DNA of 42,212 bases from a virus. Its lineage: Duplodnaviria; Heunggongvirae; Uroviricota; Caudoviricetes. A program made the position numbers and the translations under genes. Of the stretch, positions 1-41,204 are shown piece by piece; within the stretch, counting starts at the first letter, position 1, and each line of letters opens with the position of its first letter. The notes beneath the pieces were generated by a model. That model saw only the letters and a list, made by a program, of their open reading frames with translations. It was not told where the DNA came from and did no database searches. The stretch is taken from positions 1 through 42,212 of the IMG/VR virus record IMGVR_UViG_2695420595_000014; one strand, 5' to 3'.

Positions 1-1248
1 ATGGCACTGAATATTCCATTCAGAAATGCGTACTATCGTTTTGCATCCAGTTACTCATTTCTCTTTTTTATTTCCTGGTCGCTGTGGTGGTCGTTATACG
101 CTATTTGGCTGAAAGGACATCTAGGGTTGACAGGGACGGAATTAGGTACACTTTATTCGGTCAACCAGTTTACCAGCATTCTATTTATGATGTTCTACGG
201 CATCGTTCAGGATAAACTCGGTCTGAAGAAACCGCTCATCTGGTGTATGAGTTTCATCCTGGTCTTGACCGGACCGTTTATGATTTACGTTTATGAACCG
301 TTACTGCAAAGCAATTTTTCTGTAGGTCTAATTCTGGGGGCGCTATTTTTTGGCTTGGGGTATCTGGCGGGATGCGGTTTGCTTGATAGCTTCACCGAAA
401 AAATGGCGCGAAATTTTCATTTCGAATATGGAACAGCGCGCGCCTGGGGATCTTTTGGCTATGCTATTGGCGCGTTCTTTGCCGGCATATTTTTTAGTAT
501 CAGTCCCCATATCAACTTCTGGTTGGTCTCGCTATTTGGCGCTGTATTTATGATGATCAACATGCGTTTTAAAGATAAGGATCACCAGTGCGTAGCGGCA
601 GATGCGGGAGGGGTAAAAAAAGAGGATTTTATCGCAGTTTTCAAGGATCGAAACTTCTGGGTTTTCGTCATATTTATTGTGGGGACGTGGTCTTTCTATA
701 ACATTTTTGATCAACAACTTTTTCCTGTCTTTTATGCAGGTTTATTCGAATCACACGATGTAGGAACGCGCCTGTATGGTTATCTCAACTCATTCCAGGT
801 GGTACTCGAAGCGCTGTGCATGGCGATTATTCCTTTCTTTGTGAATCGGGTAGGGCCAAAAAATGCATTACTTATCGGAGTTGTGATTATGGCGTTGCGT
901 ATCCTTTCCTGCGCGCTGTTCGTTAACCCCTGGATTATTTCATTAGTGAAGTTGTTACATGCCATTGAGGTTCCACTTTGTGTCATATCCGTCTTCAAAT
1001 ACAGCGTGGCAAACTTTGATAAGCGCCTGTCGTCGACGATCTTTCTGATTGGTTTTCAAATTGCCAGTTCGCTTGGGATTGTGCTGCTTTCAACGCCGAC
1101 TGGGATACTCTTTGACCACGCAGGCTACCAGACAGTTTTCTTCGCAATTTCGGGTATTGTCTGCCTGATGTTGCTATTTGGCATTTTCTTCTTGAGTAAA
1201 AAACGCGAGCAAATAGTTATGGAAACGCCTGTACCTTCAGCAATATAG
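1..1248 (+). CDS. cscB: Sucrose:H+ symporter, LacY-family MFS permease (415 aa)
   Basis: Full-length ORF; 12-TM oligosaccharide:H+ symporter architecture; translation matches CscB as I recall it (MALNIPFRNAYYRF... start). Confidence 0.8.
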   Translation: MALNIPFRNAYYRFASSYSFLFFISWSLWWSLYAIWLKGHLGLTGTELGTLYSVNQFTSILFMMFYGIVQDKLGLKKPLIWCMSFILVLTGPFMIYVYEPLLQSNFSVGLILGALFFGLGYLAGCGLLDSFTEKMARNFHFEYGTARAWGSFGYAIGAFFAGIFFSISPHINFWLVSLFGAVFMMINMRFKDKDHQCVAADAGGVKKEDFIAVFKDRNFWVFVIFIVGTWSFYNIFDQQLFPVFYAGLFESHDVGTRLYGYLNSFQVVLEALCMAIIPFFVNRVGPKNALLIGVVIMALRILSCALFVNPWIISLVKLLHAIEVPLCVISVFKYSVANFDKRLSSTIFLIGFQIASSLGIVLLSTPTGILFDHAGYQTVFFAISGIVCLMLLFGIFFLSKKREQIVMETPVPSAI

Positions 1249-8469: not shown

Positions 8470-9114
8470 TTAGTAGGTTATTTTTGTTGCGAATACTTCG
8501 CCTTTTACGATGGCTGTTATGATATTTTTAGCAACATCTTCTGATGCACCAACCTTGATAAGGTCAGCAAGTATTTTGTTATTTACTTCTTTCCGGTGAG
8601 CTTTATCCTTTGCTCTACGCTCTTCTTCGTCCTTGATTCTTTTTTCTTCTGCTATTCTGGCTTGCTCTTTTGCTTCAGCCTCGCGACGGATTCGTTCAGC
8701 CTCCTCCTGTGCTTTTCTGCGTTCTGCTTCAATTGCTGCCTGCTTTTCTCTTTCAGCTCGTTCTGCTGCCTCTTTTGCTTCGCGCTGTGCTCGTTGCTCG
8801 GCTTCAATGCGTTCACGCTCTGCACGTTCCGCTGCGGCCTTAGCTTCTGCTTCTCGCCTTGCTGCTGCTTCAATTTCGGCTTTTGCCTTTGCTTCGGCTT
8901 CTGCTCTGGCTTTCTCTTCAGCTTCTCTTTTTAATCGTTCTTCATGCTCTCGCTTTTCCTGCTCCGCTTTGAGTCTTGCCTCTTCTCTTTGGCGGTCAAA
9001 TTCGCGATCCATCAAAATCGCTATTTCATGGTCAGACTCAATTTGCTTTGCGAGAGCTTCAGCTGCTGCCTTAGCTTCTTCTTCGGCTTTAATCCGCGCC
9101 TGATTCTTCCTCAT
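8470..9114 (-). CDS. Low-complexity E/A/K/R-rich coiled-coil protein with short globular C-terminus (214 aa)
   Basis: About 150 aa of KAEEEAKAAAE/RREAEAK-type repeats; produces spurious ORFs in other frames. Confidence 0.55.
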   Translation of the reverse strand: MRKNQARIKAEEEAKAAAEALAKQIESDHEIAILMDREFDRQREEARLKAEQEKREHEERLKREAEEKARAEAEAKAKAEIEAAARREAEAKAAAERAERERIEAEQRAQREAKEAAERAEREKQAAIEAERRKAQEEAERIRREAEAKEQARIAEEKRIKDEEERRAKDKAHRKEVNNKILADLIKVGASEDVAKNIITAIVKGEVFATKITY

Positions 9115-9439
9115 AATCAGTAAGAGGCTGGCGCGCCTTGGCTTTCAGTTCATCAAGGCGATCACGCACCGTCTTGCGGTTGGCATCAATTAGCTTTGGA
9201 ATTTCCTTCAGTTCAGCCACAAGGTCTTTGCCAAGACCATCGAGATATGTTTTCGTCTGCGCAACTTTATACGCCAGAGAAGCGATCTCCTTTCTGCCCT
9301 TTGCCGTTGTGATATCAGGCACAAAGGACATAACTTCACGTTCAACCTTTTGAAGGATTTCTTCAATCTGGTCGGCAGACTGAAATACAGTCATTGCATT
9401 TGCTTTTTCAATAACAACTAAATCTGTTACTTCACTCAT
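9089..9439 (-). CDS. Hypothetical phage early protein (116 aa from the SD-supported ATG)
   Basis: GGAGGA SD before the ATG at 9439; the longer ORF start at 9493 would overlap the upstream terminator. Confidence 0.5.
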   Translation of the reverse strand: MSEVTDLVVIEKANAMTVFQSADQIEEILQKVEREVMSFVPDITTAKGRKEIASLAYKVAQTKTYLDGLGKDLVAELKEIPKLIDANRKTVRDRLDELKAKARQPLTDYEEESGAD

Positions 9440-9451
9440 ATATCCTCCATC

Positions 9452-9480
9452 AAAAAAATTGCCCTCACACTGGAGGGCAA
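9452..9480 (-). terminator. Rho-independent terminator (tL-like) in the leftward operon
   Basis: Hairpin ttgccctc-acactg-gagggcaa followed on the minus strand by a T run. Confidence 0.6.
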
Positions 9481-9621
9481 AGAAGATTTCCAATAATCAG
9501 AACAAGTCGGCTCCTGTTTAGTTACGAGCGACATTGCTCCGTGTATTCACTCGTTGGAATGAATACACAGTGCAGTGTTTATTCTGTTGTTTATGCCAAA
9601 AATAAAGGTCGGCTATGCGGC

Positions 9622-10092
9622 CTAGTAGAATACCCAATTTTCTGTTTCTTGGTTGTGTCCAAAGTTATATTCAATATCTGGTGTTGATGTATCAATATTC
9701 TTCATCCCATCAACAAGAGTTGATACAACAGCCAAATCTTGTTTGATTCTCATTAAATGGTATTTCTTCCGGCGCAATAAACTCTCAATGGCAAGTTTCT
9801 TTGTTGGGAATGCAAAAGATCTTTCTGCATTTTTTGCTACTTTCTTAATTGCATATCTATTTCTCCTTTGTTTCCATTCCCGTAACCACTGATTTGGTGC
9901 TGGTTTAAAATCAATAATCCAATGCGCAGGAACCAACCATGCATAATGCTCTGTCTGATGAAAAGCTATATATTGAAGTGCGAATATTTTGATTCCATCT
10001 TCTTCAACTGTCGCCTGGAATCTCCAGAAAACAGGCATTCCATCATGTTCAGTTTCTGATTCAGGAAAAGGTACGCTCCATGATTTTGTCAT
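9622..10092 (-). CDS. Hypothetical protein (156 aa), first gene downstream of N
   Basis: ORF with GAGGTG SD; no recognisable motifs; no predicted TM segment. Confidence 0.55.
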   Translation of the reverse strand: MTKSWSVPFPESETEHDGMPVFWRFQATVEEDGIKIFALQYIAFHQTEHYAWLVPAHWIIDFKPAPNQWLREWKQRRNRYAIKKVAKNAERSFAFPTKKLAIESLLRRKKYHLMRIKQDLAVVSTLVDGMKNIDTSTPDIEYNFGHNQETENWVFY

Positions 10093-10100
10093 ATCTCACC

Positions 10101-10427
10101 TCAAATAAGTGGTTTGCTGCCTAATTTCATTTTCTGGCGACCAACACAAGTCACACCCATTTCACTGCGTGGCTTGCTGTACCATGTGCGCTGATTCTTG
10201 CGCTCAATACGTTGCAGGTTGCTTTCAATCTGTTCGTGGTATTCAGCCAGCACCGTAAGGTCTATCGGATTCAGTGCGCTTTCTACTCGTGATTTCGGTT
10301 TGCGATTCAGCGAGAGAATAGGGCGGTTAACTGGTTTTGCGCTTACCCCAACCAACAGGGGATTTGCTGCTTTCCATTGAGCCTGTTTCTCTGCGCGACG
10401 TTCGCGGCGGCGTGTTTGTGCATCCAT
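10101..10427 (-). CDS. N: Antitermination protein N (108 aa)
   Basis: MDAQTRRRERRAEKQAQWKAANPLLVG... arginine-rich motif and overall near-identity to lambda N; the true start is the internal Met of ORF 10101..10478. Confidence 0.9.
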   Translation of the reverse strand: MDAQTRRRERRAEKQAQWKAANPLLVGVSAKPVNRPILSLNRKPKSRVESALNPIDLTVLAEYHEQIESNLQRIERKNQRTWYSKPRSEMGVTCVGRQKMKLGSKPLI

Positions 10428-10599
10428 CTTGATTCTCCTGTCAGTTAGCTTTGGTGGTGTGGTAGGTGGGAGACCCATTTCGACCTGCTTCGGCCGACTT
10501 CAATTCGGCAATAGTTCCGCAGGCCTCGCCGCTTTACGTGCGACATATTCCCATCCATGAACCCTTCACCACACCCCAAAGCCTTCTGCTTTGAATGCT

Positions 10600-10614
10600 G
10601 CCCTTCTTCAGGGC
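10600..10614 (-). promoter_or_regulatory. nutL boxB hairpin
   Basis: Minus strand reads gccctgaagaagggc, the lambda nutL boxB sequence, upstream of N. Confidence 0.75.
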
Positions 10615-10670
10615 TTAATTTTTAAGAGCCTCACCTTCATGGTGGTTAGTGCGTCCTGCTGATGGCTAAA

Positions 10671-10685
10671 TAGTACGATTTGTAC
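10671..10685. promoter_or_regulatory. Putative OL operator palindrome
   Basis: agtac-gattt-gtact palindrome between cI and N; a related half-site pattern is found in the cI-cro intergenic region. Confidence 0.3.
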
Positions 10686-10761
10686 TTTATCGAGTCAATA
10701 CAAAATGTTCTAAATATGATTAGTTTTTTATAACGCTTTGTATTTAATGGGTTTATGTTTT

Positions 10762-10791
10762 GGAAAAAGAAAACCCGACGCTAAGGTCGGG
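10762..10791 (-). terminator. Rho-independent terminator downstream of cI
   Basis: cccgac-gctaag-gtcggg hairpin followed on the minus strand by a T-rich run. Confidence 0.7.
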
Positions 10792-10823
10792 TTATTGTTG
10801 TGTGTTTTAGAGTTGTGAGGCTG

Positions 10824-11483
10824 TTAACTAAATGTCTCTTCAGGCCACTGGCTGGCGATAACTTTCCCTACTACGGAACAGCTATCATTGCATGGAATCA
10901 TTGGATATTGCGGGTTTAGTGGCTGTAGGAACACCTGACCGCTATCCCTGATCAGTTTCTTGAAGGTAAACTCGTCACCACCAAGTCTGGCTATGCAGAA
11001 ATCACCTGGCTCAACAGCCTGCTCAGGGTCAACGAGAATTAACATCCCGTCAGGAAAGCTTGGCTTGGATCCTGTTGGCGCGGTCATGGAATTACCTTCA
11101 ACTTCAAGCCAGAACGCACAATCACTGGCTTTTTTGGTTGTGCTGACCCATCTCTCCGCATCACCTTTGGTAAAGATTCTAAGCTCAGGCGAGAACATCC
11201 CGGCCTGAACATGAGAAAAAACAGGGTACTCATATTGTTTTTTAACGGGGGCAGATGAGTATTCGCCAACAGGTGAAAATGTACCGTCGTGGTTGAATGA
11301 GACGTTATCAATACCAAGGTATTTAAACACCACACCAATCTCGTCAAGAGATGGATGACGAGATCCGCGCAACCAGTGACCAATTCCACCCTGCGTCATA
11401 CCAAGCTCTTCAGCTAACTTCTCTTGAGTTATGCCGAGCTCTTTCATTCTGGATCTAGCCAGTTCATACCATTTCATTTTCAT
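10824..11483 (-). CDS. cI: CI repressor, LexA-like S24 peptidase C-domain with distinct N-terminal HTH (219 aa)
   Basis: C-terminal half near-identical to lambda cI (...[20 protein letters not shown]...[11 protein letters not shown]); N-terminal DNA-binding domain is different; start chosen at MKMKWYEL with AAGGG SD. Confidence 0.85.
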
Positions 11484-19855: not shown

Positions 19856-19930
19856 GGGTCAGTCGTATAAAGGTCATTACGGAAGGCTGTTAACCTTCTT
19901 ATCGTGGTTCGAGTCCACGCTGTCCCGCCA
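19856..19930 (+). tRNA. tRNA-like gene, anticodon GUU (Asn) by manual folding, with acceptor and D-stem mismatches
   Basis: 75 nt ending CCA; T-arm cgtgg-ttcgagt-ccacg; 5-bp anticodon stem with loop CUGUUAA; one T-T mismatch in the acceptor stem and one in the D stem. Confidence 0.5.
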
Positions 19931-19935
19931 AATAT

Positions 19936-20011
19936 GCTGGTTTAGCTCCAATGGTAGAGCAGTCGCCTTGTAAGCGAATGGGTAGCGGTTCAAGTCCGTT
20001 AACCAGCACCA
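19936..20011 (+). tRNA. tRNA, anticodon UGU (Thr) by manual folding
   Basis: 76 nt; perfect 7-bp acceptor stem GCTGGTT/AACCAGC, D-arm GCTC/GAGC, anticodon loop CUUGUAA, T-loop TTCAAGT, 3' CCA. Confidence 0.7.
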
Positions 20012-41129: not shown

Positions 41130-41204
41130 TGGTGTCCCCTGCAGGAATCGAACCTGCAATTAGCCCTTAGGAGGGGCTCGTTATATCCATTTAACTAAGA
41201 GGAC
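41130..41204 (-). tRNA. argW: tRNA-Arg (anticodon CCU)
   Basis: Reverse complement reads GTCCTCTTAGTTAAATGGATATAACGAGCCCCTCCTAAGGGCTAATTGCAGGTTCGATTCCTGCAGGGGACACCA; cloverleaf folds with anticodon CCU. Confidence 0.95.

What the first reader, a model, noticed from the sequence alone, without database searches (positions are those of the whole stretch)
9622..10092. Unassigned 156-aa gene immediately downstream of N, at the lambda ral/sieB position
The first gene transcribed after N in the leftward operon has a good SD, no TM segment and no motif I can recognise. It is preceded further downstream by a tL-like terminator (9452..9480), so it would be expressed early and strongly under N antitermination. 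In lambdoid phages this slot commonly carries exclusion or anti-restriction functions.
Basis: inference. Interest (0 to 1): 0.45.

Follow-up and report, generated by a model that had tools for sequence, protein, structure and literature searches.

The report
Unknown early gene beside phage N
This is a real, well-conserved phage gene (the HK97 gp45 / 933W L0079 family) in the slot where phage lambda carries its restriction-alleviation and exclusion genes; it is made together with the N regulator at the start of infection, but its function is still unknown and it resembles no characterised protein.

Summary
Window 9622..10092 (-) is a 156-aa ORF 8 nt after a lambda-type N gene, with a GAGGTGA ribosome site, no membrane segment, and a hairpin+T7 terminator at 9452..9480.

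It is not new as a sequence. It is 98.7% identical to HK97 gp45 and is also 933W L0079 and phi24B vb_24B_11c (phrog_1636, unknown function). It occurs in 598 of 5426 complete E. coli genomes and is always annotated hypothetical. pN/pS of 0.10 shows a functional protein.

Its 3' flank is almost base-for-base the lambda ral-ea10 intergenic region, so the gene literally replaces lambda sieB-orf28-ral. The N-to-terminator interval is a cassette hot-spot, and in one locus the gene sits in tandem with Ral.

Here the gene is therefore co-transcribed with N and does not depend on antitermination.

Best guess, by inference only: a soluble, early-acting effector in phage-host conflict (counter-defence or host takeover). 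Function was not established.

The parts
9622..10092 (-). 156-aa protein-coding gene, HK97 gp45 / 933W L0079 / phi24B vb_24B_11c family (phrog_1636). GC is 36.5% against 47.7% for the window. pI 9.07, with an acidic N-terminus, a very basic middle (residues 61-135, 19 K/R) and an acidic C-terminus.
10096..10102 (-). Shine-Dalgarno GAGGTGA, overlapping the TGA stop codon of N. The 8-nt N-to-ATG gap makes translational coupling possible.
10101..10427 (-). Lambda-type antiterminator N (108 aa). Its last ~60 nt (10090..10150) travel with the 156-aa gene as a remnant even in phages that have a different N type.
10600..10614 (-). nutL boxB hairpin GCCCTGAAGAAGGGC. Assigned from my own knowledge of lambda nutL; the scan only reported it as a hairpin.
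10670..10698 (-). pL-like promoter (TTGACT, 17 nt, TACTAT). It is the only promoter-like site upstream of the gene on this strand.
9568..9621 (-). ~54-nt 'linker' (GCCGCATAGCCGACCTTTATTTTTGGCATAAACAACAGAATAAACACTGCACTG) directly after the stop codon. In other loci the same element lies upstream of the gene or between neighbouring cassettes.
9541..9568 (-). Strong conserved hairpin in the 3' UTR (GTGTATTCATTCCAACGAGTGAATACAC), identical in lambda and HK97. The 175-nt UTR folds with z = -4.0.
9452..9480 (-). Intrinsic terminator (TTGCCCTCCAGTGTGAGGGCAA + T7), homologous to the lambda ral-ea10 terminator. Sequence similarity between phages ends just past it.

Best explanation
SHOWN. The ORF is a genuine protein-coding gene under purifying selection, an allele of the HK97 gp45 / 933W L0079 family. 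It is a self-contained mosaic cassette made of a lambda-N 3' remnant with the SD, the gene itself, and a ~125-170-nt conserved 3' UTR with a terminator. It sits in the accessory-gene hot-spot between N and the first leftward terminator, replacing lambda's sieB-orf28-ral. In this window it lies in the pL-nutL-N transcript before any terminator. It should therefore be made with N in the first minutes of infection, independently of antitermination. The product is a soluble ~18.7-kDa alpha/beta protein: a three-stranded sheet with a long hairpin, two short helices, a fourth strand and a 33-residue amphipathic helix. It belongs to a phage-restricted superfamily with no solved-structure relative.

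INFERRED. It is most likely a non-essential, early-acting effector in phage-host conflict. I expect it to bind and neutralise, or re-direct, a broadly conserved host component (a nucleic acid, or a nucleic-acid-handling or defence protein), and to work by stoichiometric binding rather than catalysis.

Confidence. About 0.95 for the descriptive part and about 0.35-0.4 for the counter-defence or host-takeover function. The figure given for this explanation refers to the function.
For: Identity: 98.7% to HK97 gp45 and 98% to 933W/H-19B/Stx phages; phrog_1636 E = 4e-111.

Real gene: pN/pS 0.10; orthologues in Pectobacterium, Brenneria, Rosenbergiella, Cronobacter and Salmonella phage.

Slot: the 3' flank is near-identical to lambda ral-ea10 and HK97 gp45-cIII. 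Among loci with a recognisable N, more than 40 have this gene alone between N and the terminator. About 20 add one to three other small cassettes, including Ral (phrog_1055, E = 1.7e-49) in tandem. Near-identical copies follow at least four N types.

Immediate-early: the gap after N is 8 nt, and there is no terminator-like site between pL and 9480.

Foreign, moron-like: GC 36.5% against 50% for N.

Not lysogeny-specific: the BFVD fold search finds 14 uncharacterised phage proteins (E < 1e-3), including N4-like phiAxp-3 and RG-2014. The phiAxp-3 ORF 11978-12340 hits the family profile at E = 2e-9.

Context of distant homologues: always in early, accessory stretches with DNA methylases, Lar_restr_allev, RecT/YqaJ, RdgC and xis-int.

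Structure: pLDDT 92.4, pTM 0.79.

Binding rather than catalysis: the near-invariant E46 of the superfamily is Q in the E. coli clade.
Against: There is no direct functional evidence of any kind.

No similarity to any known anti-defence, defence or host-takeover protein was found. The authors of PMC12502783 ran DefenseFinder's anti-defence search on their EHEC phages, which include phi296, phi315 and phi345 (all carry this gene). They reported only MTase, Ral and Gam.

The protein is highly conserved, whereas many counter-defence proteins evolve fast.

It is absent from conjugative-plasmid leading regions, where many anti-restriction genes occur.

The position is not fixed. It is next to xis-int in Pectobacterium/Brenneria, and behind a terminator-like hairpin in phages with the ..NPNKKWS N type. 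Immediate-early timing is therefore not universal.

Rho-dependent termination within or before the gene cannot be excluded by sequence.
Confidence: 0.38

Rival explanations
1. A nucleic-acid-binding regulator of the phage's own early programme. For example, a DNA- or RNA-binding protein that tunes pL/pR transcription, mRNA stability or the lysis-lysogeny choice, in the manner of cIII or the exo-xis genes, rather than acting on host defences.
For: The central region is very basic (19 K/R in residues 61-135), and K87, R91 and K109 are invariant across the superfamily. It is co-expressed with the regulator N. In Salmonella phage NX263 the orthologue heads a small operon with a 'DNA binding protein' and a MarR-like regulator. 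It is conserved in phages of very different hosts, as expected for a target as universal as nucleic acid.
Against: No HTH, RHH, Zn-finger or other known nucleic-acid-binding fold was detected. The gene is dispensable for lambdoid development, since many lambdoid phages including lambda lack it. K109 falls on the hydrophobic stripe of the long helix, so it may be buried rather than ligand-facing (my reading of the sequence, not a tool result).
Confidence: 0.25
2. An accessory factor of phage DNA metabolism (replication, recombination or protection of DNA ends) that works with the Rec module.
For: Homologues lie among RecT/YqaJ, SSB, RdgC, exonuclease and methylase genes. In N4-like phiAxp-3 the homologue is next to dCTP deaminase and thymidylate synthase. 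The window's own left operon carries Rad52-like, SSB and exonuclease genes.
Against: In E. coli phages the gene is separated from the Rec module by a terminator and by cIII/kil. It assorts independently of the Rec-module type, being found with Bet/Gam, Erf and Rad52-like modules alike. No fold match to any DNA-metabolism protein was found.
Confidence: 0.12
3. A superinfection-exclusion or abortive-infection determinant expressed from the prophage, functionally like SieB or Rex.
For: It occupies the lambda sieB/ral slot. It is carried by 11% of complete E. coli genomes as part of prophages. In some loci it sits next to a membrane protein cassette (phrog_3054).
Against: There is no TM segment. 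No promoter-like site lies between pL and the gene, and pL is repressed in a lysogen. Relatives exist in virulent phages. There are no PADLOC defence hits.
Confidence: 0.08
4. A host-growth or cell-cycle inhibitor, like Kil, that is mildly toxic and helps take over the cell.
For: It is made early, is small and basic, lies in the same operon as kil, and the family is phage-only.
Against: There is no evidence of toxicity. Kil is already present in the same operon. The gene is kept intact in hundreds of prophages, although pL repression would mask any toxicity.
Confidence: 0.1

Closest known systems
HK97 gp45 (AAF31125) / 933W L0079 (NP_049479) / phi24B vb_24B_11c; PHROG 1636
   Same: Same protein at 97-99% identity over the full length. 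Same place (first gene after N) and same downstream UTR and terminator.
   Different: Only point substitutions. In this window the upstream gene is a lambda-type N with an 8-nt gap, whereas HK97 and 933W have the other N type with a 58-nt gap carrying a lambda-N remnant. The window also has the extra ~40-nt linker allele after the stop codon. None of these relatives has a known function.
Lambda Ral (restriction alleviation, phrog_1055)
   Same: Same slot in the pL operon and the same 3' UTR and terminator downstream. Both are small, soluble, non-essential early proteins.
   Different: No sequence relationship: Ral is 66 aa and in a different PHROG. The two occur together in tandem in locus L028, so neither simply replaces the other. 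By my recollection of the lambda map, Ral lies behind tL1 and so depends on N, whereas this gene precedes the first terminator.
Lambda SieB (superinfection exclusion / abortive infection)
   Same: Occupies the stretch directly adjoining N in lambda that is replaced here.
   Different: From my own knowledge, SieB is a membrane protein with its own promoter and is expressed in lysogens. This protein has no TM segment and no promoter-like site, and shows no similarity to SieB.
T7 gp0.3 Ocr / ArdA-type DNA mimics (first-expressed anti-restriction proteins)
   Same: An analogy in timing only: among the first genes transcribed from the entering genome.
   Different: Ocr and ArdA are strongly acidic DNA mimics. 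This protein has pI 9.07 with a basic core, and there is no fold match.
Tudor-like / SH3-like small beta-barrel plus helix proteins (PipX, PWWP, MBT, chromo)

Membership tests
HK97 gp45 / phrog_1636 | Full-length sequence similarity to the family profile and to HK97 gp45 | tested here: met
   phrog_1636 E = 4.1e-111 over 1-156 of 156; 98.7% identity to HK97 gp45
HK97 gp45 / phrog_1636 | Location in the leftward early operon just after N, followed by the conserved UTR and terminator | tested here: met
Lambda Ral (restriction alleviation) | Sequence membership of the Ral family (phrog_1055; ~66 aa) | tested here: not met
   No phrog_1055 hit for the 156-aa protein. A genuine Ral lies beside it in L028.
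Lambda Ral (restriction alleviation) | Alleviates type I restriction or enhances modification in vivo | not testable with these tools
   Needs plating of unmodified phage on EcoKI/EcoBI hosts with and without the gene
SieB-type exclusion protein | Membrane protein with TM segments | tested here: not met
   Highest 19-residue hydropathy mean is 0.56
SieB-type exclusion protein | Own promoter allowing expression in the repressed prophage | tested here: not met
   The only promoter-like site on this strand in 9000..11000 is pL. This is a consensus scan, so the evidence is weak.
DNA-mimic anti-restriction proteins (Ocr, ArdA) | Strongly acidic surface mimicking DNA | tested here: not met
   pI 9.07; residues 61-135 carry 19 K/R against 7 D/E
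Known defence-system components (PADLOC) | Significant match to a PADLOC model | tested here: not met
   Best E = 0.013 (Cas1_II, 12.8 bits). No model recurs among 68 superfamily members.
Known anti-defence families (AntiDefenseFinder set) | Match to a curated anti-defence model | not testable with these tools
   That library is not available here. Indirect evidence: the authors of PMC12502783 ran DefenseFinder's anti-defence search on their phages, which include phi296, phi315 and phi345 (carriers of the gene), and reported only MTase, Ral and Gam.
Moron / accessory cassette of lambdoid phages | Deviant base composition, discrete mosaic boundaries, presence or absence among otherwise similar phages, own terminator | tested here: met
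   GC 36.5% against 47.7%. Boundaries lie at the N 3' remnant and at the terminator T-run. Slot content is variable. There is no promoter of its own, so it is a cassette within the operon rather than a classical promoter-bearing moron.

The most novel reading that the evidence does not exclude
The protein is the founding member of a new family of counter-defence or host-takeover effectors with a fold not seen in any solved structure. In this reading it is made together with N as one of only two immediate-early pL products, and it is carried by HK97, Shiga-toxin phages such as 933W and about one in nine sequenced E. coli. The N-to-terminator interval would then be a linker-bounded cassette array of such effectors, of which Ral is the only characterised one.
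Probability: 0.3. Interest if true: 0.65.

Novelty: already known. Interest (0 to 1): 0.35.

Why it matters
If the gene does neutralise a host defence or take over a host process, it would assign a function to one of the commonest 'hypothetical' genes of E. coli prophages. That includes the Shiga-toxin phages 933W, phi24B, BP-4795 and H-19B, and the model phage HK97.

It would also show that the short interval between N and the first leftward terminator is an exchangeable effector array. Apart from Ral, the cassettes scanned here are all uncharacterised: phrog_1871, 19863, 3054, 1965, 1273, 5305 and 11941.

The high-confidence model with no structural relative also makes the protein a reasonable target for structure determination.

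As it stands, nothing beyond an uncharacterised but well-catalogued ORF is demonstrated.

Tried and rejected
Family libraries. Pfam, NCBIfam and PADLOC on the protein gave nothing significant. Pfam at E <= 5 and PADLOC at E <= 1 on all 68 superfamily members gave no recurring family. PHROGs returned only unknown-function families.

Domain fusions. The long hits P0056 and P0081 are repeat artefacts. P0052 has only a Cys-rich N-terminal extension.

With A1 it gave only 6 loci.

RNA families. No Rfam family matches the conserved 3' UTR.

Plasmids. The gene occurs only in phage-like, non-mobilizable records, not in conjugative plasmids.

Full report
1. What is in the sequence

- Window 9622..10092 (- strand) is an ATG-initiated ORF of 156 codons.
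- The ORF just upstream (10101..10427 from its true start MDAQTRRRERR...) is a lambda-type antiterminator N. It matches Pfam N36 at E = 1.5e-26.
- Upstream of N lie a boxB hairpin GCCCTGAAGAAGGGC (10600..10614) and a pL-like promoter TTGACT-17-TACTAT (10670..10698).
- Further upstream is a cI-type repressor with HTH_3 and Peptidase_S24 domains.
- Only 8 nt separate the N stop codon from the ATG of the 156-aa gene. The SD GAGGTGA overlaps that stop codon.
- Downstream there is an intrinsic-terminator-like hairpin, TTGCCCTCCAGTGTGAGGGCAA + T7, at 9452..9480.
- Beyond it come a TolA-like charged protein, cIII, kil, a Rad52-like annealing protein, SSB and a 3'-5' exonuclease.

2. It is a real gene, and it is already catalogued

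- The protein is 98.7% identical to HK97 Gp45.
- It is 97-98% identical to the 'hypothetical protein' that follows N in 933W (L0079 / ST933Wp19), H-19B, phi24B (vb_24B_11c), BP-4795, Min27 and many Stx1/Stx2 phages. The same holds for the P22-like phage vB_EcoP-683R2, which is the window's closest overall relative.
- It is PHROG 1636, 'unknown function' (E = 4e-111).
- It occurs in 598 of 5426 complete E. coli genomes, with up to four copies per genome, and is always annotated hypothetical.
- Among 35 distinct E. coli alleles, pN/pS is 0.10.
- Full-length orthologues of 55-84% identity exist in Pectobacterium, Brenneria, Rosenbergiella, Cronobacter and a Salmonella phage.
- Chance is excluded.

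3. The slot

- The 170 nt after the stop codon align almost base for base with the lambda ral-ea10 intergenic region, from the run CCTTTATTTTTGGCATAAA onward. From GCACTGTG onward they also match the HK97 gp45-cIII spacer.
- The 156-aa gene therefore takes the place of lambda's sieB-orf28-ral block.
- I examined 80 IMG/VR loci that carry near-identical copies.
  - The conserved UTR and terminator travel with the gene, and similarity stops just past the T-run. Most loci keep the terminator stem unchanged while the loop varies.
  - On the other side, about 60 nt of the 3' end of a lambda-type N gene, including the SD, stay attached to the gene. This holds even behind 933W/HK97-type N (58-nt gap) and behind a third N type ending ..NPNKKWS. 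In that last case a terminator-like hairpin lies between N and the remnant.
- The N-to-terminator interval is a hot-spot.
  - More than 40 loci hold only this gene.
  - About 20 add one to three other small cassettes.
  - One of these cassettes is authentic Ral in tandem (locus L028: N - ral - gene - terminator).
  - The other nine cassettes scanned, including a two-TM protein and Zn-ribbon proteins, fall in families with no assigned function.
- A ~54-nt element (9568..9621 in the window) recurs on either side of cassettes, like a linker.
- The gene's GC content is 36.5%, against 50% for N and 47.7% for the window.

4. Expression logic, a correction

- The only terminator-like sites on the - strand in 9000..11000 are one upstream of pL (10793..10772) and the one after the gene.
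- No promoter-like site other than pL precedes the gene.
- In this window the gene therefore belongs to the same terminator-free transcript as N. It should be made immediately after infection or induction, without antitermination.
- Two caveats apply. Rho-dependent events cannot be seen in sequence. In the ..NPNKKWS context a hairpin precedes the gene, so the timing is not universal.

5. The protein

- It is 18.7 kDa with pI 9.07 and no TM segment. The ends are acidic and the core is very basic.
- There are no significant hits in Pfam, NCBIfam, PADLOC or PDB sequences.
- An exhaustive profile search found 88 representatives at E <= 1e-3. Apart from close-family fragments and a few repeat artefacts, these are 130-160-aa proteins about 20-25% identical to this one. 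They fall in PHROGs 13631, 25384 and 28215, all of unknown function.
- Residues invariant across the superfamily are G33, T47, K87, R91, A94, A101, K109 and F155. Nearly invariant are H45, F95 and L105.
- Position 46 is E in most members but Q in the E. coli clade. This speaks against a catalytic glutamate.
- With the deeper alignment, AlphaFold2 gave pLDDT 92.4 and pTM 0.79. The elements are strands 19-30, 33-46 and 50-55, short helices 56-59 and 66-74, strand 83-86 and a long helix 98-130.
- Foldseek against BFVD found 14 uncharacterised phage proteins at E < 1e-3. They come from phages of Erwinia, Achromobacter and Delftia (N4-like), Rhizobium, Sinorhizobium, Cellulophaga and Tenacibaculum.
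- I confirmed the phiAxp-3 member with the sequence profile (E = 2e-9). It lies among nucleotide-metabolism genes.
- The fold is therefore phage-restricted, widespread and not confined to temperate phages.

6. Context of relatives

- The Pectobacterium and Brenneria orthologues are the last gene before xis-int.
- Marine and metagenomic homologues lie in early, accessory stretches beside DNA methylases, Lar_restr_allev, RecT/YqaJ, RdgC, SSB and CsrA, usually near xis-int.
- In one metagenomic phage (L007) the homologue lies among structural genes on the opposite strand to its immediate neighbours. In Salmonella phage NX263 it heads a small divergent operon among head genes.
- No partner gene is constant.
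- No informative domain fusion exists.
- The gene is absent from conjugative plasmids.

7. Interpretation

- Shown: a conserved, selected, soluble protein encoded by a mobile cassette in the ral/sieB hot-spot and co-transcribed with N.
- Inferred: given the slot, the tandem association with Ral, the early timing, the foreign base composition and the dispensability, it most likely acts in phage-host conflict (counter-defence or host takeover) by binding a conserved target. I put this at 0.35-0.4.
- Rivals:
  - a nucleic-acid-binding regulator of phage development (0.25);
  - a DNA-metabolism accessory (0.12);
  - a Kil-like growth inhibitor (0.10);
  - a prophage-expressed exclusion protein (0.08). 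The last is disfavoured by the lack of a TM segment, the lack of a promoter, and the relatives in virulent phages.
- No paper in the searchable library mentions the gene.
- The authors of PMC12502783 ran DefenseFinder's anti-defence search on their EHEC phages, which include phi296, phi315 and phi345, all carriers of this gene. They reported only methyltransferases, Ral and Gam.

8. Verdict

- The finding is accurate as an observation, apart from the expression logic in section 4, but it is ordinary as a discovery. The ORF has been annotated since the HK97 record (AF069529) and its function remains unknown.
- Three points are mildly interesting:
  - the exact replacement of lambda sieB-ral;
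  - the linker-bounded cassette organisation of the slot;
  - a confidently predicted fold with no solved relative.
- Interest: 0.35.

Noticed in passing
window 8470..9439 (-): The 'TolA-like' charged protein is a single 322-aa ORF in phage 683R2 and several IMG/VR loci. In the window it is split into 9089..9439 (116 aa) and 8470..9114 (214 aa) by one extra T near 9103. This is either a frameshifted pseudogene or a sequencing error.
   Followed up: partly
window 9452..9621 (-): The 3' UTR of the gene is nearly identical to the lambda ral-ea10 intergenic region and, from GCACTGTG onward, to the HK97 gp45-cIII spacer. It contains a strong hairpin (9541..9568) and folds with z = -4.0. No Rfam family matches. 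It could be an RNA-processing or stability element, or a 3'-UTR-derived small RNA.
   Followed up: partly
window 9568..9621 (-); also loci L022, L026, L028, L029 (upstream of the gene) and L043, L070, L010, L020 (between the gene and the next cassette): A ~54-nt element (GCCGCATAG(T/C)CG(G/A)CCTTTATTTTTGGCATAAACAACAGAATAAACACTGCACTG) recurs at cassette boundaries on either side of the gene. It looks like a linker or recombination joint for shuffling small genes behind N.
   Followed up: partly
window 10090..10150 (-); loci L042, L009, L068 and others: The last ~60 nt of a lambda-type N gene stay attached to the 156-aa gene as a non-coding remnant in phages whose N is of the 933W/HK97 type or the ..NPNKKWS type. 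This is a fossil of the recombination that moved the cassette.
   Followed up: yes
loci L010, L022, L026, L048, L043 and others (N-to-terminator interval): Other cassettes share the slot: phrog_1871 (45 aa), phrog_19863 (62-aa Zn-ribbon), phrog_3054 (149-aa membrane protein), phrog_1965 (207 aa), phrog_20899, phrog_1273, phrog_5305 and phrog_11941. All are of unknown function. Only Ral (phrog_1055) is characterised.
   Followed up: partly
window 1..1248 (+): An ORF running off the start of the window looks like an MFS sugar permease. The matching stretch of phage record ON470594 is annotated 'sucrose permease, major facilitator superfamily'. It is either host flank or cargo next to the prophage end.
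   Followed up: no
window 19856..20008 (+) and 41133..41204 (-): Three tRNA genes: two in tandem in the late-regulatory region, as in Stx-type phages, and one near the far end that may be the attachment-site tRNA.
   Followed up: no
window 10772..10793: A perfect 8-bp GC-rich palindromic hairpin between cI and pL scores as a terminator on both strands. On the - strand it is followed by a T-rich tail. It is probably the terminator of the cI (pRM) transcript, like the site annotated tM in 933W.
   Followed up: no
window 10101..10478 (-): The mechanical ORF for N starts 17 codons upstream of the real N start (MDAQTRRRERR at 10427). The extension is probably not translated.
   Followed up: partly
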